In this document: positions 28,530 through 60,639 of the stretch, piece after piece | Layout of the letters: the number at the start of each line of letters is the position of its first letter | Numbering within the stretch: position 1 is the stretch's first letter | Assembly: GCA_030167145.1 (NCBI GenBank) | Contig: CP126532.1 | Coordinates: 1,857,052 to 1,921,051 of the forward strand | Direction of reading: 5' to 3' | DNA from: Ktedonobacterales bacterium | GTDB taxonomy: Bacteria > Chloroflexota > Ktedonobacteria > Ktedonobacterales > JADMIN01 | Length of the DNA stretch: 64,000 nucleotides | Notes under the pieces: generated by a model | Databases searched by the model: none | The model's input: only the letters and a program-made list of their open reading frames with translations | What the model was told of the DNA's origin: nothing | Made by a program: the position numbers and the translations under genes

Positions 28530-29855
28530 ATCCCCTCGTGTATCGTCCAAGCGTATATCCTGGCAAGTGATGATGTCATAGACCCCATGGCGAAAGCCAG
28601 GGGCTTGTAGCTACCCCGCGCGGGGCGCCACGTCTGGCGGTATGACTGCCGCCCGGCTGCGAACACGAATGTTCACCGCCGCGTTCAGGTCGGCATGGGC
28701 GGAGAACCCACACACGACACAGAGGAACCTGGCTTGCGACTTCCGATTCGCCTTCGCACAATGCCCACAGCGGCTACAGGTCTGACTCGTGTACGCTGGG
28801 TCTACCAAAACCACACGCACGCCTGCCAGTTGCGCCTTGTAGGCAATGAAGGCGCGCAACTGCGCGAAGGCCCAGGAATGCAGCACTCTCCGCTGGCGTT
28901 TGCCCGTAACCGTTTGCTTCGCGCGGATCCGTTCGCGGATGTGCTTGAGGTCTTCAAGCGCAATCCCACGCGAAGTGCCTTTTGCCGTGCTGACCATGGC
29001 CTTCGAGAGACAATGATTCACATCCTTGACGAAGCGCCGTTCGCGTCCGCTGCGCTTCTTGAGCAGCCGTTTCGCGCTCTTGGTGCCCTTCTTCTGCAAC
29101 TTTTGGCGGAAGCGGCTGTAACGCGCGCGCACTTGATTGACATGGGCATGCTTGGGGCCGGTGGAGGAGTTCAAGAACTCGCCATCACTGGTGGCTGCCA
29201 GGGTAATAATGCCCAGGTCAACGCCCAAGAAATCGTCTGGCTCAGTGGGCGTGGGTTCGGGCGTGTCCACGGTCACCGCCAGAAAGAAGGTGTCGCTGCG
29301 CTTGCGGTAGAGCAAGTCCGCTTGCCCGCGTATGCGCGCCAGCATCCCTGCGGCATAGGCTCCGAACCGCAAGGGCAGTTCAATGCGTCCATCCAAGGTC
29401 AACAGCGAGACACGATCAATGCGCGGGAAGGAGCAGATACGCTCATCATAGACCATCGCGCCATGCGGGCGGAAACGTGGCTGAATCGTCTTGTCGCGTT
29501 TGTACGCTTCGCTGACTTTGCTAATGGCGCGAATGGTCATCTGCGACGACAGCCCAAACCGCTCGCGGATGTCGTAGTAGACCAGCTTTTGCAACTCGAC
29601 TTTGTTGGCGCACTGCTCGCTAAACGCCGTCGCCGCGATGGCATTGCAGGCGGCGTTGAACGCCTCCAGTGTCCGCAACAGGGCGGCATGCTGGTCGGCG
29701 GTCGGGGCCAATTTGACGAGCAGTGTTTGTTTCATACCGACAGTGTATCACGATTGAGGATACACATCAATTGGATTGTGCCGCCTGTCGGCGGGGCGCA
29801 TTCCCCCCCATGCCTGAAGGCAGGGCATCCGGCGCCGATTTGGGTGAAAGGACAG
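28530..29855 (-). mobile_element. IS200/IS605-family (IS1341-like) TnpB-only element, boundaries approximate
   Basis: It contains tnpB only, with no Y1 tnpA nearby. Subterminal hairpins lie upstream of tnpB (GTGTATC..GATACAC at ~29747-29769; GCCGCCTGTCGGCGG at ~29782-29796). A hairpin AAGCCCCTGGCTTTCGCCATGGGGT lies just past the tnpB stop. Confidence 0.6.
28611..29735 (-). CDS. tnpB: TnpB (IS605 OrfB family RNA-guided endonuclease/transposase accessory protein)
   Basis: MKQTLLVKLAPTADQHAALLRTLEAFN at the N-terminus. RuvC and Zn-finger region VVLVDPAYTSQTCSRCGH...FLCVVCGFSAHADLNAAVNI. Confidence 0.9.
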   Translation of the reverse strand: MKQTLLVKLAPTADQHAALLRTLEAFNAACNAIAATAFSEQCANKVELQKLVYYDIRERFGLSSQMTIRAISKVSEAYKRDKTIQPRFRPHGAMVYDERICSFPRIDRVSLLTLDGRIELPLRFGAYAAGMLARIRGQADLLYRKRSDTFFLAVTVDTPEPTPTEPDDFLGVDLGIITLAATSDGEFLNSSTGPKHAHVNQVRARYSRFRQKLQKKGTKSAKRLLKKRSGRERRFVKDVNHCLSKAMVSTAKGTSRGIALEDLKHIRERIRAKQTVTGKRQRRVLHSWAFAQLRAFIAYKAQLAGVRVVLVDPAYTSQTCSRCGHCAKANRKSQARFLCVVCGFSAHADLNAAVNIRVRSRAAVIPPDVAPRAG

Positions 29856-29858
29856 ACG

Positions 29859-30662
29859 ATGAGCGCCACCATTGTCTTTATCCACGGCGCGTGGATGACG
29901 CCATTGTGTTGGGAACCGTTTGTTGGCTATTTCCAGCAGCAGGGCTACACCTGCGTCGCCCCGCCCTGGCCGTACCGGGATAAATCAGTTGAGGAGTTGC
30001 GGAGCAATCCGCCCGCTGCCCTGGCAGGGCTGGGCGTCGCCGAGATCGTTGACCATTACGCGCGCATCATCAGCGCGCTCGATGAGCCACCGATCTTGAT
30101 CGGGCATTCGTTCGGCGGGCTGTTCGTACAGATGCTGCTCGACCAGGGATTGGGGCGCGCAGGTGTCGCGCTCGATCCCGCGCCGCCCAAGGGTGTCCCC
30201 GCCTTCAAACTGACAGCCATCAAAGCGCTCTCAGGCGTCCTGACGACATGGATGGGCTGGAAACGCATCCTACGGATGTCGCTGCAAGAGTTTCAGTATG
30301 CTTTCGTCAACACGCTGCCGCCGAGCGAGCAAAAGGCGACATACGAGCGGCAGGTGGTGCCAGAAACCGGGCGCATCTTCTTTCAAGCCGCCCTCGCGCC
30401 ACTGAACCGCCATAGCGCCATTCGGGTGCGCTTCGACAACGGCACGCGGGCGCCACTGCTACTCATCGCCGGGGCAGCGGATAACATCGTGCCGGCGAGC
30501 GTGGTGAAAGCCAATCATGCGAAATACAAACACTCACCCGCGCGGACCGACTTCAAGCTGTTCCCTGGCCGCACCCACTGGCTCATCGCCCAAGACGGCT
30601 GGGCAGAGGTCGCGGGCTACGCGGCGGACTGGCTGCGTCAATTGCCGGGGACGCCCGCGTAA
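29859..30662 (+). CDS. Alpha/beta hydrolase
   Basis: ATG at 29859 (MSATIVFIHGAWMTP). Nucleophile elbow GHSFGG. The upstream part of ORF 28695..30662 is antisense to tnpB and is discounted. Confidence 0.8.
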   Translation: MSATIVFIHGAWMTPLCWEPFVGYFQQQGYTCVAPPWPYRDKSVEELRSNPPAALAGLGVAEIVDHYARIISALDEPPILIGHSFGGLFVQMLLDQGLGRAGVALDPAPPKGVPAFKLTAIKALSGVLTTWMGWKRILRMSLQEFQYAFVNTLPPSEQKATYERQVVPETGRIFFQAALAPLNRHSAIRVRFDNGTRAPLLLIAGAADNIVPASVVKANHAKYKHSPARTDFKLFPGRTHWLIAQDGWAEVAGYAADWLRQLPGTPA

Positions 30663-33018: not shown

Positions 33019-34728
33019 TCAGGCATCCACGGCGTAGAGGTAGCTGTCACCTGAGCCGATATAGACCACATTGCCCGCTATGGTCGGTGCGGCGTAGACA
33101 GCGTTGTCCGCTTGGAAGCGCCAGCGCTGCGCGCCCGTGGTTGCATCGAATGCATAGACATAGCCGTCAAACGAGCCGGCATAGACGGCGCCATTAGCCG
33201 CCGCGGGCGCGCTCACAGCGCCGCCCGCCTGGAAACGCCAGATCTGTACGCCGGTCATCGCATCTACGGCGTAGAGGTAGTAGTCTTCGGAGCCGACATA
33301 AGCAGCGCCGTTCGCGACGGCGGGAGCGCTCACAATGTCACCCGTTTTGAAGCGCCAAAGTTGTGTACCCTTCACCGCATCCACCGCGTAGAGGTAATGA
33401 TCCTTTGAGCTGACATAAACCACGTCATTCGCCACCGCCAAAGATGAAGACGCGATGGCGCCGCCCGTTTTGAAGCGCCAGAGTTGCGTACCTTTTGTCG
33501 CGTCCACCGCGTAGAGATAGTGATCAAACGAGCCGACATAGACCACGCCATTCGCCACTATTGGCGAGGCGAAAACAACGTCACCCGTTTTGAAGCGCCA
33601 AAGTTGGTTGCCAGTTTTCGCGTCCACGGCATAGAGATAGTGATCAAACGAGCCAGCATAAACGATGCCGTTCACCACAGATGGAGAGGAGACCGCATTG
33701 TTGTTGGTTTGGAAGGTCCAAATCTGTGCCCCCGTGTTGGCGTCCACGGCGTAGAGATAGCCATCTGTTGAGCTAAAATAGAGAATGCCATCCACAACCA
33801 TTGGCGAGGAGTTCACAGGGCCACCTGTCTGGATACGCCATAGCTGTGTACCTGCACTCGCATCCACAGCATACAGATAGTGGTCATTTGAGCCGACATA
33901 GATCACGTCATACGCCACTGCGGGCGAGGAGTCCACAATGCCGCCCGTCTGGAAGCGCCAGCGCAGGTTACCCGGAATCGGAATCGGGGTTGAAGTCGGA
34001 GTGGGCGCGAGCGTCGCTGTGGGCATGGGCGTAGGTGTGGGTGTGCGGGACAACTGCGTGTGCGCTGAAATCACATCATGTGATGCAACCAGCCAGGCTG
34101 AGCTTCCAATGGTCGCCAGGGCAGCCAAACTCACTCCGGTCCGTATGAGTAGCTTGCGTCTCGACACGACTGGCATGGGAGGCGTCGGATGAGAAGCAGG
34201 ATACGGGCTGGATGTTGGGGTTGGCTGTATATGCCACGTCGGAGACGAAACCGAGGGCGTCAACGGCATCGGGGGTGGAGGCGTGTTCGGCGTAAGGGGT
34301 TTCGGATCTATCAAGGTAGGGGTCTGCGTGGCGCTTACGGCAGCGACAATACTATCTATGATCTGCTCAAAGGGTATCGCTAACGCATCAATCCAGAAGA
34401 AGGCGCTGAGCATCGGTGGCACTGTGCATGGACCGATGCGCACCGGCAGGAGCAGGCGCGTCGGATCATCCGGCATCAAGCCAAGCGCGGTCTGTATTTC
34501 GAGCTTGACCCAGAAGGAGTCGAGCGCATGCTGCGTCAGTAGCACAATGAAGGTTGGGCGCTGCTGGATCTCCCGCTCAATCATTGCGCCAAGTATCTGC
34601 CCGTTCTGCGCATTGTTTCGGTCGTACCATACATCGAGGCTACGTGCCCGCAGCGCCGCCACATACCGGTCGCACAGCTCATTATCGGCGTGCGAATGGC
34701 TCACGAAAACGGCGTGCGTAGTGTCCAT
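33019..34728 (-). CDS. TIR domain - transmembrane - PQQ-like beta-propeller repeat protein
   Basis: ATG at 34728 (MDTTHAVFVSHSHADNEL...DVWYD...FWVKLE) gives the TIR domain. A Pro-rich linker follows, then one TM helix (LLIRTGVSLAALATIGSSAWLV). Next comes a Thr/Pro linker and about nine repeats of YLYAVDAxxGxQLWRFKTGG. Confidence 0.8.
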   Translation of the reverse strand: MDTTHAVFVSHSHADNELCDRYVAALRARSLDVWYDRNNAQNGQILGAMIEREIQQRPTFIVLLTQHALDSFWVKLEIQTALGLMPDDPTRLLLPVRIGPCTVPPMLSAFFWIDALAIPFEQIIDSIVAAVSATQTPTLIDPKPLTPNTPPPPMPLTPSVSSPTWHIQPTPTSSPYPASHPTPPMPVVSRRKLLIRTGVSLAALATIGSSAWLVASHDVISAHTQLSRTPTPTPMPTATLAPTPTSTPIPIPGNLRWRFQTGGIVDSSPAVAYDVIYVGSNDHYLYAVDASAGTQLWRIQTGGPVNSSPMVVDGILYFSSTDGYLYAVDANTGAQIWTFQTNNNAVSSPSVVNGIVYAGSFDHYLYAVDAKTGNQLWRFKTGDVVFASPIVANGVVYVGSFDHYLYAVDATKGTQLWRFKTGGAIASSSLAVANDVVYVSSKDHYLYAVDAVKGTQLWRFKTGDIVSAPAVANGAAYVGSEDYYLYAVDAMTGVQIWRFQAGGAVSAPAAANGAVYAGSFDGYVYAFDATTGAQRWRFQADNAVYAAPTIAGNVVYIGSGDSYLYAVDA

Positions 34729-34996
34729 TTCGCGCTTTCCCCTACACGGCACACACACGTGCAACACGCTCATTCGCTCTCCACGTGGAGCGCACGCTGC
34801 GTCTGTATCGTGCGAGCATTGTAGCACGGACCGTCTAGCGGCGCACGCCGGAGAGCGCACGGCGTGCGCCCCTACGGATGGGGTGGCAGGCAGACAGGAA
34901 GGGCCGCCTCGCCAGCGAGCGAGGGCAGACAGGAAGATCTACCCTACCGCCGAGGCCGGCGGGACGCCGGCGGTACAACGGATGCAGCGGCGAGCG

Positions 34997-35746: not shown

Positions 35747-36781
35747 TTACGAAGTGCGCCCGAAAGGACGCAGGTGATCCCAGCCACGCGGCTCAAGCGC
35801 CTGCTCCGCGCCGTCAGGTAGACGCAGACGCATGCCGCGCTCCGGCTCGGTCAGTCGGCCAATGACGGTTGCGTCTGCGCCCACGGCGCGAACGGCATCC
35901 AGGGCAAGCGCAACCTGGTCGGGCGGCACGGCGAAGAGCAATTCGTAGTCTTCGCCGCCGGTGAGCGCGAGCGCGAGTGGATCGCGCCCAAACGCCCGCG
36001 CCACAGCCTCTGCCTCCGGCGCGACGGGAATGCTCTCTGCCGTCAACAGCGCGCCGGTGGCGCTGGCCGCGCAGAGGTGGCTGAGATCCGCCGCCAGCCC
36101 ATCGCTCACGTCTAGCATAGCGTCTACCACACCTGTCGCGGCAAGAGCGCGCCCTTCGACAACCCGTGGGAAAGGCGCGACCATCGCCTGCCGCGCGCTC
36201 GCTCTCATATCAGCGAGAATCGTGCCAGTTTCCTGGCTGTCGCCGCTGGTCGCCAGCAAGACGCCAGCGGCGGCGGCGCCGAGGCGTCCCGTCACGAGGA
36301 GCACATCACCTGGCTTGCCGCCGGAGCGCCGCAGTTCCGCGCCACGCCGCACGCGGCCCAGCAGCGTCACATCCAGCGCGAACGGCCCATCGGTCGCCGC
36401 GACATTGCCGCCGACCACCGCGACAGCGAAACGCGCGGCCAGTTGGCGCATACCAGCGTAGATGCCGTCGAGGGCGTCCACGGAGAGCGTCGGGGGCAGC
36501 AGCAGCGAGACGAGCGCCCAGAGCGGCTCCGCGCCCATCGCCGCGATGTCGCTGAGATTCACGGCGAGCGCCTTGTGCCCGATCTCTTCGGGCGTGGCGA
36601 CACCCCAGAGAAAGTGCCGCCCCGCGACCTGGGCGTCGCAGGTCGCCACCAGCAGCGCGTCTGGCCCCAGGTCGAGCAGTGCGGCGTCGTCACCCACCCC
36701 CAGCGCTACATCCGGGCGCGTGGCCAGGCCCGCCGTCAAGCGCGCGATCAGCCCGAACTCGCCCAGGTCGCGCGCCAGCAT
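35747..36781 (-). CDS. thiL: Thiamine-monophosphate kinase
   Basis: GEFGLIARL, GVGDDAALLD, ATCDAQVAGRHF, GHKALAVNLSDIAAMGAEP, GDVLLVTGRLG. The start is at 36781 or 36835. Confidence 0.85.
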   Translation of the reverse strand: MLARDLGEFGLIARLTAGLATRPDVALGVGDDAALLDLGPDALLVATCDAQVAGRHFLWGVATPEEIGHKALAVNLSDIAAMGAEPLWALVSLLLPPTLSVDALDGIYAGMRQLAARFAVAVVGGNVAATDGPFALDVTLLGRVRRGAELRRSGGKPGDVLLVTGRLGAAAAGVLLATSGDSQETGTILADMRASARQAMVAPFPRVVEGRALAATGVVDAMLDVSDGLAADLSHLCAASATGALLTAESIPVAPEAEAVARAFGRDPLALALTGGEDYELLFAVPPDQVALALDAVRAVGADATVIGRLTEPERGMRLRLPDGAEQALEPRGWDHLRPFGRTS

Positions 36782-37065
36782 GCCTGGTTCGCCCGCAATC
36801 TGCGCGCAATCTCGTGCGCTGTCTGATGGCTCCATATCCTGCCTCGCAAATACCAGAGTAACCCGCCAAGTATACACAAAGGCTTATTATTTCGCAACGC
36901 GCGGTTGGCGGAAATCGCGCAACGGGCGTCCACCGGACGCCCCTACAGAGGATTTGGCGAAGCGTTTGGCACGCGAAGTGTAAGGCAACGCATGGTGATG
37001 CTGGCCTGTTTGCGCAGCGCATGGTGCGTGACCCATGTGCGGGATGAAGGGAGGACGCGCCCGCG

Positions 37066-38001
37066 ATGCTGATATCTGACCTGCTGCGCCGCCTGCGCGC
37101 GCTACCACCAAAGCGACAGGCCGGGCTACTCGCCGGATGCGCGGCACTGTGTTCGTTCGCGCTCACGCTCCTGCTGCCGATGGGGGCGCTGCTGCCCGCG
37201 CCGCGTTCGCTGCTGGGCGGCGACTATGGCGACACCACGGCAGGCGGTTCGGAGCAGGGGTGGTCATCAATCGTCATATTGACTCCCGATCCATCCACAC
37301 CGACCGCTGTTCCCTGCCCCACGTATACGGGTGAGCGGCCGGACCGGGATGAGGTGAGCCGCGCGTTGGAGCGCGCCGCCGACGCCTATCATCTGCCGCG
37401 CAATCTGCTGTTCGCCGTCGCGTGGCAAGAGAGTAGCTGGCGGCAGGATGCGCGCTCGTGTGACGGCGGCGTCGGCCTGATGCAGATCCAGAACACCACG
37501 TGGGAATGGCTGAACGCGCAGCAGGCGCCCGCTTGCGCGCTGCGCCAGACGAGCTACGACCCGACGACGCTGCAAGGCAACGCGGACCTCGGCGCGAAGT
37601 TCCTCGCCTGGCTGAGTTGCTACTACACGTATTGGGGCGGCAACGGTGGCGTATCGGTCAGCGCGCCTGGTAATATGACGGCTGCATGGTATTATCAGCA
37701 GGCGGGGCTGCGGCTGCCCGACACCAGGACAACCGATGGCTCGCCCAATCCGGCGAGCCTCTGCGCCGCCGTCCTCGACGACCCGGCGTATCCCGAATAT
37801 GAGGCGCTGCACACGGCATCCGCCGAGGTGTGGAGTTGCCCCTACGATGCGACCAGCGATGATCCGACGCTGCTCGATTTTGTGCTCAGCGCGTATAACC
37901 AGGGCGTCCACCGCACCAACGACAGCGGCATCCAAAACTGGGGCTATGTGCGAAGTGTGGAGGCGTATATTTCGCTGTTCGCTATTGGCGCGCTGCCATA
38001 G
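37066..38001 (+). CDS. Lytic transglycosylase (SLT domain) protein
   Basis: N-terminal TM segment. The catalytic region is LLFAVAWQESSWRQDARSCDGGVGLMQI. Confidence 0.8.
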   Translation: MLISDLLRRLRALPPKRQAGLLAGCAALCSFALTLLLPMGALLPAPRSLLGGDYGDTTAGGSEQGWSSIVILTPDPSTPTAVPCPTYTGERPDRDEVSRALERAADAYHLPRNLLFAVAWQESSWRQDARSCDGGVGLMQIQNTTWEWLNAQQAPACALRQTSYDPTTLQGNADLGAKFLAWLSCYYTYWGGNGGVSVSAPGNMTAAWYYQQAGLRLPDTRTTDGSPNPASLCAAVLDDPAYPEYEALHTASAEVWSCPYDATSDDPTLLDFVLSAYNQGVHRTNDSGIQNWGYVRSVEAYISLFAIGALP

Positions 38002-40475: not shown

Positions 40476-42512
40476 TTAGTCTGCGTTGAGTGCTTTTATC
40501 GCGGCGGCGAGGGGTTCGCCGTAGAAGATGGGATCGACTTGCTCAACGACATCAGCCGATACCTCTAAGAAGGAGCGCTTATTTTCGCTCGGGATCAGGG
40601 CGCGCCGAGCGCCGTTATCCATGGCAACCTGAAGTAGCTCAGCGAGTGAGCGCGGAGGCAGGATGTTGCCTTGAATGGTCAGATCGCCGATGACAACGAG
40701 TGCTGGACGTACTGAGCGTTCCTTGATGGCGGAGTAGAGCGCAATGAAGAATGCGATGCCAGCCTGGGCGCGCTGACCCGAACCGGTGAGGTCAACGGCT
40801 TGAACATGGTAATCGTAGCTGGCAAGATCACGATCTACCCCCAGTTCGCGGGCACGCGCACGCATGTAATCATAGGCGGTGGTCAGTGAGGCTTTGGTAG
40901 CAGTGTCAGGGCTGCCAGTAATCTTGAGTTTGCCGCTGCCGTTGCCAATTTTGCCCACTTCGATGCGGTGGAGCGCGACCTTGTCTTCGTCAGTGAAGGT
41001 GGCGGAGTAGATGCTTCCGGGCGGAAGGGGGTCAGATGAGATGAGATCGCGGCCACCCTCCTCAGGTACACCGACAAAGTACTCTTGCATCGTTTCGTGG
41101 TCGATATACGAAAAGCTGGTCTGATAGTACTCGAAGGAGCCGAGCTTCTTCAGTTGCTCTTTGACCCGCCGGCGCCCTTCCAACGCGAACTCCAGATAGT
41201 CGCGCAGCTCGCCAGGCGTGACCTGACGGTCGGGATGAAGCAGTTTCACCAGCCCCGAGACGGTCTTGCGGACGGCTTTGGCATCACGCGTATTGAGATG
41301 TGCGCCAAGGGAAAAATGGGTATCAATGATATCGGTAAAGTTTTGCTTGCGTAGCTCGCGGACGGCCTCGGCAAGATAGTCTACGACGAAGCCATAGCGT
41401 TCGGTTTGGAGGTGCGTTGCCATTTTCGGCATCTCCCAACCGGGCAGATAGTAGTGAAGGCGATCAATGAACGCCATGTCGTCACGCATGGCGTCAGGCA
41501 ATGGCGCGAAGAGATGCGACGTTCTGACAAGCACATCAATAGGTTGGTTGGTATTGCCCAGGAAGACCATTGAGGCATCGGCGCCTAATTCTTCGCGCCC
41601 ACGGCTGAACGAACCGGATTCCATGTAATCTTTGAGGATCTGGATAGCGGATGTGTCGCTGAATTGGATACCAGCAACTTCGTCGAAGGCGACGACGTCC
41701 CAGAGGCCGACGAGTCCCATCTTGCCGGTGCCCATGTTGTAGAAGAGGTTGGCAACGGTGGTTTTGCCGCCGGAAACGAGAATGGCATAGGGAGTGGTTT
41801 CGCGGTAGATGAAGCTTTTGCCGGTGCCGCGCGGACCTAGCTCGATGAAGTTATAGTTGCGCTCGATCATCGGGATGAGGCGTGCGAGGAAGAGCAGCTT
41901 GAGGCGCCACTGCATGCCGTCAGGTTCGATGCCGATGCTGCGGAGTACGAGGTCGGCCCACTCGCTGGTGGTGAAGTGCTGGCGCGCTTCGACGTAGTCG
42001 GTGAGGGTGAAGCCCGCGAGTTGGATCGGCTTGAGATCGGTGACGTAGAAGGGATGGCTCTTGGGATCGTCATCTTTGTCGTCGCCGCGATAGTCGAGGT
42101 TGACCTGTGCCCAGATGCCGCCTTCGAGCAGGCGCGGATACTGGCGGACGAGGTGGTCGGGGACATGGAGGTAGCGATTGCCGAAGTTGGCCATCTCGCC
42201 CCAGTCATCTTTCTCGGTGGAGCGCACGCGGATCTTGTCTATGTAGACGCCCTGGCCGCGGTCCTTGACGGCGAACATCGCTTTGTTGGCTTCGTCGGGG
42301 CGGATGAAGTTTTCGGAGAGGGTGAAATTGACGAGGCGCAGACCAGCTTGAATGGCGGCGGGGTCATCGGTCGCGCAGTATTTGCCCAGCAGGTATTCGA
42401 GGACATAGACCGGTACATTGGCACCGACTTTGACCGCGTGGACGAGGTCTTTGCGGACGACTTTGCCGGCGAAGATATCCGTGACTTTGCGGTCTAGCTC
42501 TGACGCGGACAT
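40476..42512 (-). CDS. brxL: BREX Lon-like protease BrxL
   Basis: The N-terminus FAGKVVRKDLVHAVKVGANVPVYVLEYLLGKYCATDD is the hallmark BrxL start. Also an AAA-like GPRGTGKSF and a C-terminal Lon protease-like domain. Confidence 0.9.
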   Translation of the reverse strand: MSASELDRKVTDIFAGKVVRKDLVHAVKVGANVPVYVLEYLLGKYCATDDPAAIQAGLRLVNFTLSENFIRPDEANKAMFAVKDRGQGVYIDKIRVRSTEKDDWGEMANFGNRYLHVPDHLVRQYPRLLEGGIWAQVNLDYRGDDKDDDPKSHPFYVTDLKPIQLAGFTLTDYVEARQHFTTSEWADLVLRSIGIEPDGMQWRLKLLFLARLIPMIERNYNFIELGPRGTGKSFIYRETTPYAILVSGGKTTVANLFYNMGTGKMGLVGLWDVVAFDEVAGIQFSDTSAIQILKDYMESGSFSRGREELGADASMVFLGNTNQPIDVLVRTSHLFAPLPDAMRDDMAFIDRLHYYLPGWEMPKMATHLQTERYGFVVDYLAEAVRELRKQNFTDIIDTHFSLGAHLNTRDAKAVRKTVSGLVKLLHPDRQVTPGELRDYLEFALEGRRRVKEQLKKLGSFEYYQTSFSYIDHETMQEYFVGVPEEGGRDLISSDPLPPGSIYSATFTDEDKVALHRIEVGKIGNGSGKLKITGSPDTATKASLTTAYDYMRARARELGVDRDLASYDYHVQAVDLTGSGQRAQAGIAFFIALYSAIKERSVRPALVVIGDLTIQGNILPPRSLAELLQVAMDNGARRALIPSENKRSFLEVSADVVEQVDPIFYGEPLAAAIKALNAD

Positions 42513-42541: not shown

Positions 42542-45157
42542 TTAGAATAGAATGTCCAGATCAATTTCGTCGAGACGTTGTAACTCGCGTCCGGTGGTGG
42601 CATCGAGCAGGTGGATGGAGACGCGCTGTGGCGGCAGGTGGTCGCGCTCGATATGCAGGATGGCGGTGTCGGGCGCTATGGTGAGCGGGTCATCATCCTG
42701 AAAGCGCGGTTGTATCTCACCAGTGGCTTCACTATAGCCGTAGTCTGCGGCAACCAGCCGGGAGATGATGTCGCTCCCCGCGCGAATCTCGACCCGCACG
42801 GGCGGGAGCGCGGTGTCGAATAAGCTGACGCGCTGCCCGGCGATCTGGACGGAGCAGACACGGGAGGTGATTTTCTGCGAGCCAAGGGTGAGTCGCCATG
42901 CAATCTCGCGCCCCTCGCTGCTCGCGAGTGCTGCCGCGCGCGCCGTTGGGGTGATCACGACGACGGGAATCGCCATTTCTTGGGGGGATAGCCCGCCGTG
43001 GAAATAGGCGCGCGCGCCTCCGGGTAGTTTGAAGGCGCCAAAGCCCCAGGGTGTGGCAAGCTCCAGATCGGTGTCGTCCAGGTCGAAGGCGGCCAGCGGC
43101 GCGCGCAGATAGGCTTCGCTGGCAGCGCCACCACGCCCGATCCAGACACGACGGTGCAGGTCGCAGGTGTGGCCGCCGGGTGGCTCAATTTTCATGTCGC
43201 TGCCGAGTTCATCACTGAAGAGAAAGCCGTGGTCGGCGGTGACGATGATCTGTTTGCAGTGCAGCTCACTCAGTCGGCGGACGCCGCGCACCAGATTGGC
43301 GAGCAGTGCGTCCATGACGGTGTGCGCGAGGCTGATATTGTCCAACTCGCAAATGGCGTCAATTTCTTGTGAGGTAACGAGGATCAGGTCAGCGTCTTCG
43401 ATGTTTTTCTTTACGGCATTTTGGGTTGTGAGCAGAGCATCAAGCGTGGTTGCAAATACGCGTGTCGGGCGGTGGGCGGTGGATGGGACCTGTTCTTTGA
43501 GCCATTTGATGCGGCTGTCGCGGTCGCGCAGGACGGTGTCACGCAGGTGCAGGGCAAGATTGCCATTGGGGGCGGGCACAACCTTCACCCCTTCTTCGGC
43601 GCCAGGGAGGAGCGCGGCCATACCAATGGGCGTGATGGTGGGTACGGTACCTGCGGCAACGGCGAGGCGCGCGTCGTACCAGTCACCCAGGCTCTGGACG
43701 AAGATGCGCGCCATCTCATAGCGCAGGGCATCTACCAGGATGTATGCGGTTTTGCCAGCGCGCAGCGCTTCGGTGACATGGCGTGTGTAGATCTCGGTCT
43801 GGCGCTGGATGCCCGGAAGTTGGAAGCCTGCGTCCACCAGCGCATGGGTATAGCGCACCGCAAGGGTATCGCCGACGCGCATGTACCGCTGGCGGGCGTG
43901 GGTGAGGAGCTGTTCGAGGGTGGGGTGGCGCGCGATGGACTCAAAGCGACGGCTCTGTTGCTCTAGCTCGCGCTGGAGGGTATCTAGCTCGCACCAGGGG
44001 CGCTCGCCGTCGGTGTACGCATGCAGGATAGCGGCCGCCGAGAGGGTAGCGTGCTGGAGCGCGGCTTCGATCTCTGCCGCGCACAGCAGGAGGTTGCCCG
44101 CCGTGGCGCTGAGGGTCCAGCGGTCGTAGGCGTCAGGCAGGCGCTGCGCCCAATAGTCGCGCTTGCGCTGCTGGATGAGGTCGAGCAGTGTGGTGGATGG
44201 CGCGTCGCGTAGCGTGGTCTCCAGGGCGGTTTGGAGCGCGGTTTCGATGGCGGCGAAGGTTTCGCAGTCGCGTAGCTGCGCAAGGTCGAAGGGAATGCTG
44301 GACAGGCCAAGTTCGCGCTCGACGCGGTTGGCGTAGTCGGCATAGCTGTCGGCGAGGTCGCGCGTTTGGCGCCACCGCCGGACGAGCCGGAGGCACGCCT
44401 CACGCGGAGCCAGCTCCGTGGCAATGTTGACGGTGGCAAGCTGTGGAGGAACCGGCGGGTGAAGGCTGGCGAGAAGTTCAGTACACAGGAGGTGGCGCGC
44501 GAGACGCAGGCGCAACGTGGGGAGCGGCTCATCTGGCGGTAGCGGAATGCCGTAGGTTTCGCCAAGCAGCGCCGTGAGGTCGGGTTGAGCGTGTTTGGCG
44601 GCGATCTCGGTGTCGAATGTGTCGCCGGAGAGCAACTTGAGCGCCACTTCGTCGGGTATACCCGTGCCGAAGATGACGGCGATGACGCCGTGCGCTTCGG
44701 GGCTGCTGACGTGATCGCCGAGGCGATCCAGGTCGGCGAGGGAAAGCTGCCCTTCGTTGGCCTGCTTTTCGATGCGCTGAGCGTGTTCTACGCCGAGTAC
44801 GTCTTTCAGCGCGGCCTTGGCGATGACTGAGAGGCGGGTGTTGCGCTGCCAGGGCTGCTGGCCGGGCTTGAGAACGACGCCAGCGGCGGTCAGTTCGATG
44901 AGCGCATCGTGGGTGTCGTCTTCAGCGAGGGGCACGTAGACGACGAGGCGCGGCGGCTGTTCGCCCTCCAGTAGCGGCGCGACATCGTGGCGGAGTTGAA
45001 AGAAGCTGCCTGCGTAGCGGGCGATGGTGGTATCGGGGAGGGTGAGCGCGGAGGCGAGGTCGCTATAGTGTCGTTCGGGGTCGAACCAGACGACGAGCCG
45101 CTTTTCGGTGACCTGTTTGGCGATCAGGTCGCGTAGATAGTCGCTGACGATTCCCAT
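42542..45157 (-). CDS. pglZ: BREX alkaline-phosphatase-superfamily protein PglZ
   Basis: 871 aa. YILVDALRYEM and VTADHGFLF match the PglZ phosphatase-fold motifs. It sits between pglX and brxL. Confidence 0.85.
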   Translation of the reverse strand: MGIVSDYLRDLIAKQVTEKRLVVWFDPERHYSDLASALTLPDTTIARYAGSFFQLRHDVAPLLEGEQPPRLVVYVPLAEDDTHDALIELTAAGVVLKPGQQPWQRNTRLSVIAKAALKDVLGVEHAQRIEKQANEGQLSLADLDRLGDHVSSPEAHGVIAVIFGTGIPDEVALKLLSGDTFDTEIAAKHAQPDLTALLGETYGIPLPPDEPLPTLRLRLARHLLCTELLASLHPPVPPQLATVNIATELAPREACLRLVRRWRQTRDLADSYADYANRVERELGLSSIPFDLAQLRDCETFAAIETALQTALETTLRDAPSTTLLDLIQQRKRDYWAQRLPDAYDRWTLSATAGNLLLCAAEIEAALQHATLSAAAILHAYTDGERPWCELDTLQRELEQQSRRFESIARHPTLEQLLTHARQRYMRVGDTLAVRYTHALVDAGFQLPGIQRQTEIYTRHVTEALRAGKTAYILVDALRYEMARIFVQSLGDWYDARLAVAAGTVPTITPIGMAALLPGAEEGVKVVPAPNGNLALHLRDTVLRDRDSRIKWLKEQVPSTAHRPTRVFATTLDALLTTQNAVKKNIEDADLILVTSQEIDAICELDNISLAHTVMDALLANLVRGVRRLSELHCKQIIVTADHGFLFSDELGSDMKIEPPGGHTCDLHRRVWIGRGGAASEAYLRAPLAAFDLDDTDLELATPWGFGAFKLPGGARAYFHGGLSPQEMAIPVVVITPTARAAALASSEGREIAWRLTLGSQKITSRVCSVQIAGQRVSLFDTALPPVRVEIRAGSDIISRLVAADYGYSEATGEIQPRFQDDDPLTIAPDTAILHIERDHLPPQRVSIHLLDATTGRELQRLDEIDLDILF

Positions 45158-45273: not shown

Positions 45274-47385
45274 CTATTTGCCCTTCACGTAGCCCTTCGC
45301 GCGCAGTTGCTGGCCGATGGAGGACCAGTCGTATTTGCCGGTAAGCAGTTGTTGCCATGCTGCTTTGGCTTCTTTCCATGGTATCACTTCGCAGAAGGGG
45401 GCGATGTTGAGGAGCACGCCGTCGTTGAGGTCGGGGGTGAGGTAGTGGCGGGCGGCGCGGTCGAGGGCGTCGTGAAATTCGCGCAGGTCGGCGAGCAGGG
45501 TTTCTTGGCGGTCCAGGGCCTGGGCGGCGCGCCGGGCTTCGGGGCCGGTGGGTCCGGCGGCGGCTTTGGCGGCGTGTAGTTCGTCGAGGCGCTGTTCTTC
45601 GAGCCGGATTTTGGGCAGGAGGTGGAGGGTGAGGGCTTTGAAGATGAGGTCGGCGTCGAGGCGGTGGTAGTAGAGCCAGATGGCGTAGTGGCGTTTGGGG
45701 GATTGCAGCAGCCAGTAGATGGGGGCTTTGCGGCGGCTCTTGGAGTAGCGCGAGATGTGGAAGTCGAAGAAGAGGCGCGGGTTGCGGAGATATTCGCGCA
45801 GGTCGCGCACGCCGAGCAGCGCGCAGGCTTCGGCTTCGATGGCGCTGGCGCGGTCGCCCCAGAGGTGATCGAGGACGAGGCGGATGCGGCGCAGGAGGTC
45901 GTTGGGGGCGTCGGGGTCGTCTACGAGGATGCCGTCCCAGGCGATACCTAACCCCCCGGCCCCCTTCCCTGCGAGGGAAGGGGGAGTGGAGGGGGCGTCG
46001 AGCGTGGTGGGGTCGGGGAGGGTGATGGCGTTGGGACGGGTGCGGAGCCAGGCTTCGCTGGCGATGTGGTCGCGGGTGGCGGGGAGGCCGTCGTGGCCGA
46101 CCAGCGCGCCGGGGGCGCAGACGGGCAGCGGGGCGAAGGGGTCGGCAAGGCGCGGGGCGAGCGTGGGGTCGTGGGCGATACGCACGTCCCAGCGGCCAAA
46201 GGCGCAGCCGAGGGCGTACATGATGAGGTTGGCAGCTTCGGTGCGGGCGCGCTGAAGTCCGTTGCCGGCATTGGCGTTGGATTGAGCATCGCGCTCTTCG
46301 TCGCGGTCGTCGCCAGCTTCGTCGCCAGTCGCCACGGCTCCTACTTCCGCTGGCGGCGAAGATGCCTCGATATGGGCGCGATCATCGGGGGAGAAGCCGT
46401 AGAGGGCGTAGCAGCGGTCATCTATCTCGCGCTGGATGGTGGCGAGGCGCTGGACGCGGGCGGCGTCTGCGTTGGCGAGGAGGCTGAGGGCGGCGGCGAG
46501 GGTGGGCTGGGCGCGCAGGCGGACGAGCGCGGGGACGGTGAAGGGGTGGGTGACTTCGTCGTCGCGGTCAGATTCCCGCTTGCAGTCGTGGGCCTCGCGG
46601 GCGAGGGTGGCGAGGGTGTGCGCGTCATCGGCGCTGAGGTCGGGGACGGGGGTACGCTGGACGACACCGACTTCGTAGGAGCCGAACGCCATTTGCATCG
46701 AGAGCAGCGCGCCGAAAGAGGCTGAGTTGACCATGGCGAGCAACGCGAGGAGATCTGTCGGCTCGTCATCTGAGACGAATAGGGCCGGGCCTTTGTCGGC
46801 GAAGATGCAGCCAGCGGGCATGACGCGCACGCTGAAGCCGCCTTGCGTGCGGCGGGGGTAGGTGAGGCCGGGGCGGAAGTAGTAGTCGAGGGCCTCGGGG
46901 CGCTCTATCTCGCGACCGGGGCGTCCATAGAAGTTGCGGTAGGTGTGGCGCGATTCGTCCCAATCAGCAAGTAGGTGCATATCGTAGTAGAAGGGCGAAT
47001 AGCTACCGCCTTTCGCAAATGTTGCCCATCTGATGTTCCAGCTAACTGTAATGGGTAATACCTCCCACCACGTTCGAACACGTTGGAAATCATCGCCAGT
47101 GCTTGAGCCTCGGCGCGCCTCACGTCCATCCCCTTCGAAGGGCGGGAGTTCGGTGAAGAGTCGGCGTACATCCTCGCTGACCCAGTAGGCGAAGGGGGAG
47201 CCGGGGATCTGGCGGAAGGAGGCGGGGTCGAGGGTGAAGAGACCTAACCCCCCCAGCCCCCCTTCCCTACGTGGGAAGGGGGGAGTGGTGGCGGCGCGGT
47301 GGGCGGCGGTGGCGGCGCGTAGGGCGGCGGGTTTGTCGTCGGCGGCGAGGAGGCGGATGAAGGTGGTGGTGTGGGGCATGGTCAT
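45274..47385 (-). CDS. pglX: PglX-like protein, C-terminal half (specificity and C-terminal domains) of the split second paralog
   Basis: It is colinear with residues after the MTase core of the full-length paralog (FRQIPGSPFAYWV vs FDAIPGSPWVYQI; KAPIYWLLQSPKRHYAIWLYYH vs KRPIYWLLQSPKRGYGVYLFAE; DLNDGVLLNIAP vs ELDDGILINLAP). Confidence 0.8.
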   Translation of the reverse strand: MTMPHTTTFIRLLAADDKPAALRAATAAHRAATTPPFPRREGGLGGLGLFTLDPASFRQIPGSPFAYWVSEDVRRLFTELPPFEGDGREARRGSSTGDDFQRVRTWWEVLPITVSWNIRWATFAKGGSYSPFYYDMHLLADWDESRHTYRNFYGRPGREIERPEALDYYFRPGLTYPRRTQGGFSVRVMPAGCIFADKGPALFVSDDEPTDLLALLAMVNSASFGALLSMQMAFGSYEVGVVQRTPVPDLSADDAHTLATLAREAHDCKRESDRDDEVTHPFTVPALVRLRAQPTLAAALSLLANADAARVQRLATIQREIDDRCYALYGFSPDDRAHIEASSPPAEVGAVATGDEAGDDRDEERDAQSNANAGNGLQRARTEAANLIMYALGCAFGRWDVRIAHDPTLAPRLADPFAPLPVCAPGALVGHDGLPATRDHIASEAWLRTRPNAITLPDPTTLDAPSTPPSLAGKGAGGLGIAWDGILVDDPDAPNDLLRRIRLVLDHLWGDRASAIEAEACALLGVRDLREYLRNPRLFFDFHISRYSKSRRKAPIYWLLQSPKRHYAIWLYYHRLDADLIFKALTLHLLPKIRLEEQRLDELHAAKAAAGPTGPEARRAAQALDRQETLLADLREFHDALDRAARHYLTPDLNDGVLLNIAPFCEVIPWKEAKAAWQQLLTGKYDWSSIGQQLRAKGYVKGK
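45947..45986. repeat. Palindromic element (GGKG family), single copy, in-frame in the pglX C-half
   Basis: CCTAACCCCCCGGCCCCCTTCCCTGCGAGGGAAGGGGGAG, with a 10-11 bp hairpin core. It is translated as PPSLAGKGAGGLG. Confidence 0.85.
47243..47284. repeat. Palindromic element (GGKG family), single copy, in-frame in the pglX C-half
   Basis: CCTAACCCCCCCAGCCCCCCTTCCCTACGTGGGAAGGGGGGA, translated as PPFPRREGGLGGLG. Confidence 0.85.
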
Positions 47386-59953: not shown

Positions 59954-60057
59954 TGCGTGACGTGTCCTTCTCTTTCCAGTGTCGTACTCTCGTCGTTGTC
60001 TCGTGGTTTGCTCGTCGTACTCTCGCCGTTCATTTCTCAGCGAGCGCATGATGACGA

Positions 60058-60639
60058 TCACCCGTAGACTTTGACGCGATAGTTGCCCATGGCCTCGCGG
60101 TTCTTGAGATCCATGAAGCGCAGGCCGACGGTACCCTCGAGTGTGCCGGGGTAGAAGAGGATGGCGGGGACGGCGGTGCGGCGCTGCATCTCGTCGAGTA
60201 GCCGCGACATCTGGTAGATGGAGGGCGCCATGGCTGAGGCGCGGGTGAGGAAGACGAGGTCGCGCTGCGGATCGAAGGGGCGCATGCGCTCGGCCAGGGT
60301 ATCGGGCAGGGGCCGCCAGAAGGGATGGGAGAGATAGGTCGTCGCCTGCTCCTCGGCGGCGGCGAAACCACTCATGCGCTCTAGCTCTACCAGCGCATCC
60401 AGTCCTTCGGTCTGCGCGATGGTTTCCCAGAGCAGGCCAGCGAGCGAGATGGTGTGAACGCGCTTGCCGGTCTGTGCGAGACTGTCGGCGAGCAGCCGGG
60501 CGCGGCGGCGCATATCCCACTCGGCCTCTGGCTCGTAGCGCAGGATGGCGAACGGGAGGTCGGTATGGTTGGCGATGCGCATCGGCGTGGCGGTGAGGTC
60601 GCGTTCGAGCAGGTCAAAGCGGTCTTTGAGTGAGAGCAT
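60058..60639 (-). CDS. brxB: BREX protein BrxB (DUF1788)
   Basis: 193 aa with LPFAILRYEPEAEWDMRRR, VPAILFYPGTLEG and GNYRVKVY, matching the BrxB pattern. It sits directly after brxA. Confidence 0.85.
   Translation of the reverse strand: MLSLKDRFDLLERDLTATPMRIANHTDLPFAILRYEPEAEWDMRRRARLLADSLAQTGKRVHTISLAGLLWETIAQTEGLDALVELERMSGFAAAEEQATTYLSHPFWRPLPDTLAERMRPFDPQRDLVFLTRASAMAPSIYQMSRLLDEMQRRTAVPAILFYPGTLEGTVGLRFMDLKNREAMGNYRVKVYG

What the first reader, a model, noticed from the sequence alone, without database searches (positions are those of the whole stretch)
33019..34728. Toll-like-receptor-style topology: cytoplasmic TIR, single TM helix and an extracytoplasmic beta-propeller
An N-terminal TIR domain with no signal peptide (VFVSHSHAD...DVWYD...FWVKLE) is followed by a Pro-rich linker and one TM helix. 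About nine PQQ-like propeller blades (YLYAVDAxxGxQLWRFKTGG) come after that. This predicts an outside sensor coupled to an inside TIR, which may be an NADase or a signalling domain. Most characterised bacterial TIR defence proteins are cytosolic, so a transmembrane receptor architecture is unusual. It may sense an envelope or extracellular cue.
Basis: partly seen in the sequence, partly recalled or inferred. Interest (0 to 1): 0.6.

Follow-up and report, generated by a model that had tools for sequence, protein, structure and literature searches.

The report
Membrane-anchored TIR protein with outside propeller
A soil-type Chloroflexota bacterium encodes a protein with a probable NAD-cleaving TIR domain inside the cell, and a weakly hydrophobic, export-signal-like segment probably anchors it to an eight-bladed propeller outside; this would be a bacterial counterpart in layout to Toll-like receptors, it recurs in metagenomes, and no paper found here describes it.

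Summary
Window 33019..34728 (minus strand) encodes a 569-aa protein. It has an N-terminal TIR_2 domain (E=2.7e-19; AF2 pLDDT 90; the catalytic Glu E77, in a WxxxE motif, is invariant). Then come a Pro/Thr-rich linker, one hydrophobic segment (193-216) and a second linker. The C-terminus is an eight-bladed (not nine) BamB/YxaL/AfsK-type propeller that is not a quinoprotein. The membrane segment is the weak point. It is only marginally hydrophobic and AF2 gives it no helix. However, it follows an S-R-R-K-L-L twin-arginine-like motif and has +4 charge on the N side. An equivalent segment is present in 10 of 10 TIR+PQQ proteins inspected, but in 0 of 36 TIR-TPR or TIR-FGE relatives. An inverted homologue has signal peptide, propeller, TM and then TIR. 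The closest TIRs (56-66% identical) sit on cytoplasmic TIR-CLec proteins, one of them a DGR target. The closest anchor-plus-propeller belongs to receptor Ser/Thr kinases. The gene is therefore a domain-shuffled chimera. I read it as an N-in/C-out receptor whose clustering switches on a TIR NADase. About one third of close TIR relatives carry a TM, so the architecture is uncharacterised rather than rare. Verdict: new variant of a known kind; interest about 0.55.

The parts
33019..34728 (-). Complete CDS of 569 aa plus TGA stop at 33019-33021: TIR, linker, signal-anchor, linker, 8-blade propeller
34738..34743 (-). AGGGGA ribosome-binding site, 9 nt upstream of the ATG at 34728. It supports this start over the upstream GTG at 34860.
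   Evidence: homologue N-termini
34327..34716 (-). TIR domain, residues 5-134, with a five-stranded flavodoxin-like fold
   Evidence: Pfam TIR_2 E=2.7e-19. PDB sequence hits are PdTIR, L6, TcpB/BtpA and AbTir. AF2 gives pLDDT 90 and pTM 0.86. Foldseek top hits are SPARTA TIR-APAZ (TMq about 0.8), SARM1, BtpA and L6.
34498..34512 (-). W73-V-K-L-E77 (WxxxE). E77 (codon 34498-34500) is the predicted catalytic glutamate.
   Evidence: E77 aligns with the Glu of L6 'WCLMEL' and PdTIR 'WPQKEL'. I identify this Glu as the catalytic residue from memory. It is invariant in 17 of 17 aligned sequences and at least 90% conserved in 110 close relatives.
34165..34326 (-). Cytoplasmic Pro/Thr/Ser-rich linker, residues 135-188, predicted disordered
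34147..34164 (-). S189-R-R-K-L-L194, a twin-arginine (Tat consensus S/T-R-R-x-F-L-K)-like motif directly before the hydrophobic core
   Evidence: The same S-R-R-x-[LFV]-[LV] motif occurs in P0038, P0064, P0173, P0161, L021 and the kinase L056.
34081..34152 (-). Hydrophobic, uncharged segment, residues 193-216 (core 197-215). It is the predicted N-in/C-out membrane anchor or uncleaved export signal.
   Evidence: K+R count is 4 within the 15 residues N-terminal of the core and 1 (offset by D218) within the 15 residues C-terminal (sequence). Kyte-Doolittle 1.46 and Hessa sum +3.0. An equivalent segment is present in 10 of 10 TIR+PQQ proteins and 0 of 36 TIR-TPR/FGE proteins.
33970..34080 (-). Extracytoplasmic Pro/Thr-rich stalk, residues 217-253
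33022..33969 (-). Eight-bladed beta-propeller, residues 254-569, PQQ_2/BamB/YxaL/AfsK type. Blades are 39-41 aa. A 120-nt tandem periodicity is detectable over blades 4-7.

Best explanation
The gene encodes a single-pass, N-in/C-out membrane receptor of a Ktedonobacteria-like, probably monoderm (from memory) Chloroflexota bacterium.

Shown:
- The protein has a well-formed TIR domain that keeps the catalytic WxxxE glutamate.
- It has an eight-bladed, non-quinoprotein propeller.
- Two disordered Pro/Thr linkers flank one hydrophobic segment between these domains.

Inferred:
- The TIR folds and stays in the cytoplasm.
- The S-R-R-K-L-L motif plus the weakly hydrophobic segment 193-216 acts as an internal, uncleaved signal-anchor. 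It may be read by the Tat pathway, which could export the propeller already folded. The result is a propeller on a 37-residue stalk outside the membrane.
- The propeller binds an envelope-derived or foreign ligand that is still unknown.
- Ligand-driven clustering of receptors brings the cytoplasmic TIR domains into the head-to-tail assemblies that every characterised NADase TIR needs to form its active site.
- The TIRs then cleave NAD+. This either depletes NAD+ (growth arrest or death of the cell or hyphal compartment) or makes an ADPR-type signal.

I favour a surveillance or conflict role over housekeeping signalling. The gene was built by domain shuffling. Its TIR comes from a clade otherwise fused to cytoplasmic sensors (DGR-diversified CLec, TPR, WD40). 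Its anchor-plus-propeller cassette is shared with receptor Ser/Thr kinases of the same phylum.
For: Domains.

Catalytic residue: E77 is invariant and W73 and E77 are at least 90% conserved in 110 relatives. The best structural matches are NADase TIRs: SPARTA, SARM1, BtpA and L6.

Topology:
- There is no N-terminal signal.
- The charge bias is +4 on the N side against about 0 on the C side.
- The hydrophobic segment co-occurs strictly with the propeller. It is present in 7 of 7 TIR+PQQ proteins against 0 of 36 TIR-TPR/FGE proteins (Fisher p about 3e-8, not corrected for relatedness). It is also present in P0058, P0074 and the L017 652-aa paralogue.
- These TIRs are only 17-27% identical to the window's TIR, so the architecture has been assembled repeatedly.
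- P0106 has the mirror order: signal peptide, propeller, TM, coiled coil, TIR.
- Of the 120 best propeller hits, 46 by my count are kinase fusions, many with an internal Arg-flanked TM. Many others start with signal peptides.
- All natural structural neighbours are extracytoplasmic as I recall them: BamB, secreted YxaL (30% identity) and tetrathionate hydrolase.

Tat idea: S-R-R-x-[LFV]-[LV] followed by a Gly/Ala/Thr-rich core recurs in TIR-PQQ, TIR-WD40 and kinase-PQQ proteins. An internal Tat signal that exports a C-terminal domain has a precedent in the Streptomyces Rieske protein (PMC13186574).

Conflict role:
- The nearest TIRs (56-66% identical) are TIR-FGE-sulfatase proteins. One sits in a DGR with RT, bAvd and TR (PMC10907252).
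- Distant TIR-TM-PQQ loci carry SLATT_1, caspase, extra TIR paralogues and RyR-domain proteins. RyR domains bind or cleave 2'/3'cADPR (PMC13232231).
- A BREX cluster starts 5.7 kb away.
Against: - The segment is the least hydrophobic of all homologous anchors: +3.0 kcal/mol, against -3.4 to +2.8 in the other anchors scored.
- AF2 predicts no helix there and pLDDT is <50.
- No dedicated topology or Tat predictor could be run.
- Some kinase-PQQ proteins, including the Streptomyces kinase-PQQ hits (AfsK is the named member of this type), show no TM. This propeller type can therefore also work in the cytoplasm.
- The immediate neighbours are housekeeping genes: Mo-oxidoreductase, PhoU, ThiL, SLT and QueA. 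The 64-kb window contains no SLATT, RyR or second TIR gene and no ThsA-like domain among the ORFs scanned. No downstream partner is visible.
- No orthologue was found to test conservation of the anchor.
- NADase activity, ligand and oligomerisation are all inferred.
- R-R pairs are common in high-GC positive-inside flanks, so the Tat motif could be coincidental.
Confidence: 0.55

Rival explanations
1. The protein is a soluble cytoplasmic TIR-propeller sensor. Segment 193-216 is only a hydrophobic patch in a disordered linker. Both domains are cytoplasmic, and the propeller recognises an intracellular ligand, as in the TIR-WD40, TIR-TPR and TIR-CLec relatives.
For: Hydrophobicity is marginal (Kyte-Doolittle 1.46; Hessa sum +3.0). 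AF2 shows no helix. The closest TIR relatives are cytoplasmic fusions. Six of 13 TIR-WD40 proteins and a number of kinase-PQQ proteins lack any TM.
Against: An equivalent uncharged segment of at least 19 residues, preceded by Arg/Lys, is present in all 10 N-terminal-TIR+PQQ proteins inspected, although their linkers are unrelated. It is absent from all 36 TIR-TPR/FGE proteins. The mirror-image homologue has a signal peptide. The nearest anchor-plus-propeller cassette belongs to a receptor kinase. The natural structural neighbours are exported proteins.
Confidence: 0.2
2. The topology is the same, but the role is physiological signalling. The protein would be an envelope, growth or development sensor equivalent to the PQQ-propeller receptor kinases. 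The TIR would serve as an alternative output, either as a non-lethal nucleotide-signal generator or as a scaffold, rather than as an immune or suicide effector.
For: The sensor cassette is shared with receptor Ser/Thr kinases. Propeller identity reaches 55% with Chloroflexota kinases, and L056/L062 are 55-59% identical over residues 145-299. The flanks are housekeeping genes and the window holds a single copy.
Against: The TIR clade is otherwise attached to hallmark conflict-system sensors, namely DGR-diversified CLec, TPR and WD40. Distant homologues lie among SLATT, caspase, RyR and TIR paralogues. The catalytic Glu is retained.
Confidence: 0.2
3. The segment is a cleavable signal peptide. 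After export, signal peptidase cuts behind the hydrophobic core (for example LVA|S or ISA|H) and releases a free extracytoplasmic propeller. The TIR is then uncoupled from it.
For: Possible small-residue sites follow the core (sequence). P0173 has an A-L-A|T site.
Against: No cleavage motif is conserved among homologues: P0038, P0064 and L056 lack one. A 190-residue folded domain in front of a cleaved signal has no obvious rationale. The repeated independent fusion of TIR or kinase to this cassette argues for physical coupling.
Confidence: 0.05

Closest known systems
Metazoan Toll-like and IL-1 receptors
   Same: Both are single-pass membrane proteins that couple an extracellular ligand-binding repeat domain to a cytoplasmic TIR. 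Signalling by receptor clustering is the natural model for both.
   Different: The orientation is opposite: the TIR is N-terminal, giving a type II protein with no cleaved N-terminal signal. The ectodomain is a propeller rather than LRR or Ig. Box 2 (RDxxPG), which the TIR survey reports as typical of these receptors, is absent from the sequence; Box 3 was not examined. The TIR keeps the catalytic Glu typical of NADase TIRs (from memory). The profile match is to TIR_2, with only 21.2 bits to the animal/plant-type TIR PF01582. This is analogy, not membership.
PQQ-propeller receptor Ser/Thr kinases of Chloroflexota and Actinobacteria (AfsK-type propeller)
   Same: The sensor cassette is the same: Pro/Thr linker, Arg-flanked and often S-R-R-x-L-L-type anchor, Pro/Thr stalk, and an 8-blade propeller of about 40 aa per blade. 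Identity reaches 55-59%.
   Different: The cytoplasmic output is a TIR instead of a Pkinase domain. As I recall, AfsK itself has no TM, and the Streptomyces kinase-PQQ hits show none. The NF053615 score of 228 is far below its cut-off of 1300.
Characterised bacterial NADase TIR systems (SPARTA TIR-APAZ, Thoeris ThsB, TIR-SAVED, TIR-STING, AbTir, BtpA, PdTIR)
   Same: The TIR fold and the WxxxE catalytic glutamate are shared. The best fold and sequence matches are these proteins. All of them use activation by oligomerisation (established knowledge).
   Different: From memory, all of those TIR modules are cytosolic and sense intracellular cues such as nucleic acids, cyclic nucleotides or phage proteins. 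Here the sensor is predicted to be outside the membrane, and the window holds no Ago, SAVED, STING or ThsA partner.
TIR-FGE-sulfatase (C-type-lectin fold) proteins of Ktedonobacterales, including DGR targets
   Same: These carry the closest TIR domains, at 56-66% identity, with the same N-terminal position and a Pro-rich linker. One locus has the full DGR set of RT, bAvd and TR. This fits the class described in PMC10907252.
   Different: They have no hydrophobic segment and are cytoplasmic. Their sensor is a CLec fold, hypervariable in the DGR case, rather than a propeller.
BamB / YxaL / designed Cake8 eight-bladed propellers
   Same: The propeller fold is the same: Cake8 TMt 0.94 at 40% identity, YxaL 30% identity, BamB TMt about 0.8.
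   Different: Those are stand-alone extracytoplasmic proteins (BamB is a lipoprotein of the outer-membrane BAM complex), without a TIR or an N-in anchor. The TIGR03300 score of 189 is below its cut-off of 285.

Membership tests
TIR domain superfamily (Pfam TIR_2, PF13676) | Profile match above the curated threshold | tested here: met
   70.3 bits against a gathering score of 28, E=2.7e-19, residues 7-116
TIR domain superfamily (Pfam TIR_2, PF13676) | Flavodoxin-like beta-alpha fold that superposes on solved TIR domains | tested here: met
   AF2 gives pLDDT 90 and pTM 0.86. Foldseek reports probability 1.00 and TMq 0.7-0.82 to SPARTA, SARM1, BtpA and L6.
Enzymatic (NADase) TIR domains | Catalytic glutamate in the alpha-C WxxxE motif | tested here: met
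   W73-V-K-L-E77 aligns to L6 WCLMEL and PdTIR WPQKEL. E77 is invariant in 17 of 17 sequences and at least 90% conserved in 110.
Enzymatic (NADase) TIR domains | NAD+ cleavage activity that depends on self-association | not testable with these tools
   Needs a biochemical assay of TIR(1-140) with and without E77A
Toll-like receptors (metazoan) | Type I topology: signal peptide, N-terminal LRR ectodomain, TM, C-terminal TIR | tested here: not met
   The TIR is N-terminal, there is no signal peptide, and the ectodomain is a PQQ_2-type propeller
Thoeris (ThsB with ThsA) | ThsB-type TIR encoded next to a ThsA effector (SIR2 or Macro with SLOG) | tested here: not met
   ThsB_TIR scores 21.8 bits against a cut-off of 21.2, which is borderline. 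No SIR2/Macro/SLOG domain was hit among the 20 ORFs scanned across the window; not every ORF was scanned.
PQQ-dependent dehydrogenases (quinoproteins) | Full-length match to the quinoprotein family models | tested here: not met
   TIGR03075 scores 122 against a cut-off of 480, and TIGR03074 scores 64 against 833. The blades are minimal 39-41-aa units.
BamB | Equivalog score, lipoprotein signal and an outer-membrane BAM context | tested here: not met
   TIGR03300 scores 189 against 285 and NF008351 scores 151 against 423. There is no lipobox. From memory, the host phylum is generally regarded as monoderm.
Tat (twin-arginine) substrates | S/T-R-R-x-F-L-K-like motif followed by a weakly hydrophobic uncharged h-region | tested here: met
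   S189-R-R-K-L-L, then 20 uncharged residues (197-216) with a Hessa sum of +3.0
Tat (twin-arginine) substrates | Signal located at the N-terminus | tested here: not met
   The motif is at residue 189, after a folded domain. The precedent for an internal Tat signal is the Streptomyces Rieske protein (PMC13186574).
Tat (twin-arginine) substrates | Tat-dependent export (TatA/TatC present; RR-to-KK abolishes export) | not testable with these tools
   The window holds no identified tat genes; this needs the whole genome and experiments
Single-pass membrane receptors (N-in/C-out) | One membrane-spanning segment with a positive-inside charge bias | tested here: inconclusive
   The charge bias is clear, and the comparative co-occurrence is 10 of 10 against 0 of 36. 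But hydrophobicity is marginal, AF2 predicts no helix, and no dedicated predictor was available.

The most novel reading that the evidence does not exclude
This would be a bacterial functional analogue of Toll-like receptors. An extracytoplasmic propeller senses an external or envelope cue and switches on a cytoplasmic TIR NADase across the membrane. The folded propeller is delivered outside by an internal, uncleaved twin-arginine signal-anchor. The same anchor-plus-propeller cassette is interchangeable between Ser/Thr-kinase and TIR outputs. In some lineages the TIR signal may feed RyR-domain or SLATT effectors.
Probability: 0.35. Interest if true: 0.8.

Novelty: new variant of a known kind. 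Interest (0 to 1): 0.55.

Why it matters
As far as I know, every experimentally understood bacterial TIR system detects something inside the cell. A TIR wired to an extracytoplasmic sensor would mean outside-in activation of NAD+ cleavage. That could allow detection of phage adsorption, competitors, kin or wall damage before the cytoplasm is breached. It would also show that the receptor logic of animal TLRs has an independent bacterial counterpart with an enzymatic TIR.

The comparative data give a concrete and testable family. It includes TIR-TM-PQQ, TIR-TM-WD40 and TIR-TM-Vgb-lyase proteins, plus a mirror-image archaeal-looking form. Output swapping with receptor kinases offers natural chimeras for experiments.

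The recurrent internal S-R-R-x-L-L anchor raises a separate question: can Tat export a C-terminal domain behind a folded cytoplasmic domain in a bitopic protein?

Current annotation pipelines label these proteins only 'BamB' or 'PQQ-binding repeat protein', so the class is effectively hidden.

Tried and rejected
Rejected readings:
- The upstream GTG start at 34860 (613 aa). It has no homologue support, and the SD sits before the ATG at 34728.
- A quinoprotein or BamB identity for the propeller. Scores are far below the cut-offs.
- Thoeris, CBASS or SPARTA membership. The PADLOC hits are TIR-domain-only, and no partner genes were found.
- A DGR in the window. None was seen, and the window gene has no FGE domain.

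Searches that found nothing:
- The exact protein and close orthologues. The protein is absent from the 5.8-billion-protein set; the best colinear relatives are 36-40% identical. It is also absent from genome contigs and metagenome contigs, where only TIR-only or propeller-only matches appeared. Synteny and anchor conservation among orthologues therefore could not be tested.
- The promoter and terminator scan was no better than shuffles.
- The listing of cluster members gave no organism names for the homologues.
- Five literature searches found no description of a TIR-TM-propeller protein. This is absence from the held library, not proof of absence.

Tool failures:
- The afdb50 fold library was unavailable.
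- One look-up of encoding contigs failed and was repeated.

Weak statistics:
- Enrichment of R-R before the anchors is 28 of 72 in propeller proteins. It is suggestive only, because Arg-rich positive-inside flanks are expected at 63% GC.
Full report
**What is there**

The finding's coordinates hold a minus-strand ORF (33019..34860). The real start is almost certainly the ATG at 34728. An AGGGGA ribosome-binding site lies 9 nt upstream. The closest homologues begin a few residues before the same F-V-S-H-[AS]-H strand. The product is 569 aa.

- TIR domain. Pfam places TIR_2 on residues 7-116 at E=2.7e-19 and 70.3 bits, against a cut-off of 28.
- Propeller. PQQ_2/Beta-prop_ACSF4/PQQ cover residues about 275-569 at E from 1e-91 to 1e-33.
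- Repeat count. The C-terminal domain consists of eight 39-41-aa repeats, each ending in Y[LV]YA[VF]DA.
- Between the domains lie a Pro/Thr/Ser-rich linker (135-188), the sequence S-R-R-K-L-L-I-R followed by an uncharged stretch T197-S216, and a second Pro/Thr-rich linker (217-253).

**TIR domain**

Sequence search of the PDB finds PdTIR (8.8e-5), flax L6, Brucella TcpB/BtpA and AbTir. In those alignments E77, within W73-V-K-L-E77, falls on the Glu of L6 'WCLMEL' and of PdTIR 'WPQKEL'. I identify this from memory as the catalytic glutamate of NADase TIRs.

E77 is the only invariant column among 17 aligned close and distant relatives. In 110 representatives of the nearest TIR clade, F8, S10, H11, H13, D15, S71, W73, V74 and E77 are each at least 90% conserved.

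An AF2 model of residues 1-140 has pLDDT 90 and pTM 0.86. Its best Foldseek matches are SPARTA TIR-APAZ (TMq about 0.8), SARM1, BtpA and L6. The only low-confidence part of the TIR is residues 40-44. I take this to be the BB-loop, which is an inference.

The TIR assignment and the presence of the catalytic residue are therefore established. Enzymatic activity is inferred.

**Propeller**

The full-length AF2 model gives an eight-bladed ring with pLDDT >95. It superposes on the designed 8-blade protein Cake8 (TMt 0.94, rmsd 1.2 Å, 40% identity). Among natural proteins it matches BamB, secreted YxaL (30% identity) and tetrathionate hydrolase. As I recall them, all of these are extracytoplasmic.

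NCBIfam scores are far below the cut-offs for quinoproteins, BamB and AfsK. 'PQQ' is therefore only the repeat family's name.

**Is the middle segment a membrane anchor?**

This is the weakest link.

Evidence against:
- The Kyte-Doolittle 19-mer maximum is 1.46.
- A simple Hessa-scale sum is +3.0 kcal/mol. Homologous anchors range from -3.4 to +2.8.
- AF2 leaves residues 153-251 unstructured.

Evidence for:
1. Four Arg/Lys lie within the 15 residues N-terminal of the core. On the C side there is one Arg, offset by one Asp. This predicts an N-in orientation.
2. Among the nearest TIR relatives I cross-tabulated C-terminal domain type against a post-TIR hydrophobic segment. The counts were PQQ 7 of 7, WD40 7 of 13, TPR 0 of 25 and FGE-sulfatase 0 of 11. 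Adding P0058, P0074 and the L017 paralogue by inspection, 10 of 10 N-terminal-TIR+PQQ proteins have exactly such a segment. Their TIRs are only 17-27% identical to this one and their linkers are unrelated.
3. P0106 has the mirror arrangement: signal peptide, propeller, TM, coiled coil, C-terminal TIR.
4. Of the 120 best propeller hits, 46 by my count are Ser/Thr-kinase fusions, many with an internal Arg-flanked TM before the propeller. Many others begin with signal peptides.
5. The metagenomic kinase L056/L062 matches residues 145-299 at 55-59% identity. That span covers linker, anchor, stalk and first blade. Its anchor reads L-S-R-R-S-V-L-I-G-L-A-G-L-V-G-V-G-A-A-G-T-G-I-A-W-L-L.

The S-R-R-x-[LFV]-[LV] motif followed by a Gly/Ala/Thr-rich core recurs in TIR-PQQ proteins (P0038, P0064, P0173, L021), in TIR-WD40 proteins (P0161, P0181, P0222, P0176) and in kinase-PQQ proteins. 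From memory, this is the signature of twin-arginine signal peptides, whose h-regions are characteristically weakly hydrophobic. An internal Tat signal that exports a C-terminal domain has a precedent in the Streptomyces Rieske protein (PMC13186574).

I therefore read residues 189-216 as an internal, uncleaved signal-anchor, possibly Tat-dependent. I put the probability of TIR-in/propeller-out topology at about 0.7, and of Tat involvement at about 0.4.

**Origin and context**

QueA in the window is 77-78% identical to sequences from Ktedonobacterales MAGs. The organism is therefore a Ktedonobacteria-like Chloroflexota not represented at species level.

The exact protein is absent from the databases. 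No orthologue was found in the genome or metagenome collections.

The nearest TIR domains (56-66% identical) belong to TIR-linker-FGE-sulfatase proteins without any hydrophobic segment (L009, L022). In L001 this gene is followed by a DGR reverse transcriptase, bAvd and a template repeat. That makes it a DGR-diversified C-type-lectin sensor of the kind described for multicellular bacteria (PMC10907252).

The exhaustive search gave 9362 TIR hits at E of 1e-3 or better. Of 110 close representatives, 26 carry TPR, 11 WD40, 11 FGE-sulfatase and 2 PQQ.

TM-containing examples include TIR-TM-Vgb-lyase propeller, TIR-TM-WD40, TIR-TM-FKBP, TIR-TM-SBP_bac_5 and TIR-RDD. Roughly a third of the non-truncated relatives have at least one predicted TM.

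The window gene thus joins a TIR from a 'cytoplasmic sensor' clade to the anchor-plus-propeller cassette of receptor kinases.

**Neighbourhood**

The immediate neighbours are housekeeping genes: Mo-oxidoreductase downstream, and PhoU, ThiL, SLT, QueA and an SDR-glyoxalase upstream. There is no terminator or promoter signal above background. No RyR, SLATT or second TIR gene is present in the 64 kb.

A BREX-type cluster (BrxL, PglZ, PglX-like methyltransferases, BrxC-like) occupies 40476-60520, 5.7 kb away. A TnpB gene lies 3.3 kb on the other side.

In distant homologues the context is clearly conflict-like:
- L017 and L021 have a SLATT_1/DUF4231 membrane protein directly upstream of tandem TIR-(TM)-PQQ paralogues, plus extra TIR genes and a caspase.
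- L017 and L019 have large AAA+RyR-domain proteins.
- L019 has a TrkA_N+RyR protein.

RyR domains were recently shown to bind or cleave 2'/3'cADPR (preprint PMC13232231). This fits a signal-generating TIR in those loci.

**Mechanism proposed**

The domain composition, catalytic residue and propeller fold are shown. The following steps are inferred:
- membrane insertion N-in/C-out, perhaps through Tat;
- ligand binding by the propeller;
- clustering-dependent assembly of the TIR active site, as in SARM1, SPARTA, TIR-SAVED and AbTir (established knowledge);
- NAD+ depletion or ADPR-type signalling as the output;
- a surveillance or conflict role.

Rivals are a wholly cytoplasmic sensor (0.2), the same topology with a physiological signalling role parallel to the receptor kinases (0.2), and cleavage that releases the propeller (0.05).

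**Comparison and novelty**

The protein works like a Toll-like receptor only in layout. It fails the TLR membership features of type I order, LRR ectodomain and signal peptide. It is a bona fide TIR_2 protein of the NADase type. It is not a Thoeris, CBASS or SPARTA component, and it is not a quinoprotein or BamB.

Five searches of the held literature found no description of a TIR-TM-propeller architecture. Source annotations call the homologues 'BamB'.

It is best filed as a new, uncharacterised variant of the known TIR sensor-effector fusions. The variant recurs in metagenomes rather than being unique to this genome.

Noticed in passing
window 40476-60520 (minus strand): A BREX-type defence cluster: BrxL (40476-42512), PglZ (42542-45157), a 703-aa protein with no Pfam hit (45274-47385), a PglX-like Eco57I/MmeI methyltransferase (47998-50358), a BrxC-like 1222-aa protein (51194-54862) and a second 1640-aa Eco57I/N6_Mtase protein (55598-60520). 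It starts 5.7 kb from the TIR gene, and five housekeeping genes separate the two.
   Followed up: partly
window 28611-29735 (-) and 28695-30662 (+): A TnpB/IS605 OrfB-like gene (Cas12f1-like TNB plus OrfB_IS605) overlaps a long plus-strand ORF. The alpha/beta-hydrolase domain of that ORF lies only in residues 390-640, so the hydrolase gene probably starts much later than the listed ATG.
   Followed up: no
L001 8001-11200; L009 7938-9312; L022 525-1895: The closest relatives of this TIR (56-66% identical) are TIR-linker-FGE-sulfatase (C-type-lectin fold) proteins without a TM. In L001 the gene is followed by a DGR reverse transcriptase, bAvd and a template repeat. The L001 genes are broken by frameshifts, which are probably assembly errors; L022 has an intact 457-aa ORF.
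   Followed up: partly
L017 37-5984; L019 1067-5775; L021 2448-4067: Distant TIR-TM-PQQ genes and the inverted PQQ-TM-TIR gene sit beside RyR-domain proteins (AAA+RyR of 878-897 aa; TrkA_N+RyR of 608 aa) and SLATT_1/DUF4231 membrane proteins. RyR domains were recently shown to bind or cleave 2'/3'cADPR (PMC13232231). These may therefore be receptors or effectors for a TIR-made signal. None is present in the window.
   Followed up: partly
P0161, P0171, P0176, P0181, P0222 (TIR-WD40); P0037, P0044, P0086, P0118 and L056 (kinase-PQQ): An internal S-R-R-x-[FLV]-[LV] motif followed by a Gly/Ala/Thr-rich, weakly hydrophobic segment recurs between a cytoplasmic output domain (TIR or kinase) and a beta-propeller. 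This suggests a class of bitopic proteins whose propeller is exported by an internal Tat-type signal-anchor.
   Followed up: partly
window 33255-33678: A 120-nt tandem periodicity (3.5 copies, 71% matches) covers blades 4-7 of the propeller. These blades are much more alike than the outer ones, which is consistent with recent blade duplication or conversion.
   Followed up: no
P0267 (567 aa, metagenome): This protein has a TIR-TPR-TM-PQQ architecture. A cytoplasmic TPR module is inserted between the TIR and the anchor, so cytoplasmic and extracytoplasmic sensor modules can be combined on one TIR.
   Followed up: no
window 1-64000: GC skew is positive in 31 of 32 2-kb bins (the exception is 36001-38000) and cumulative skew rises almost monotonically across the window. 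Most long genes are on the minus strand.
   Followed up: no
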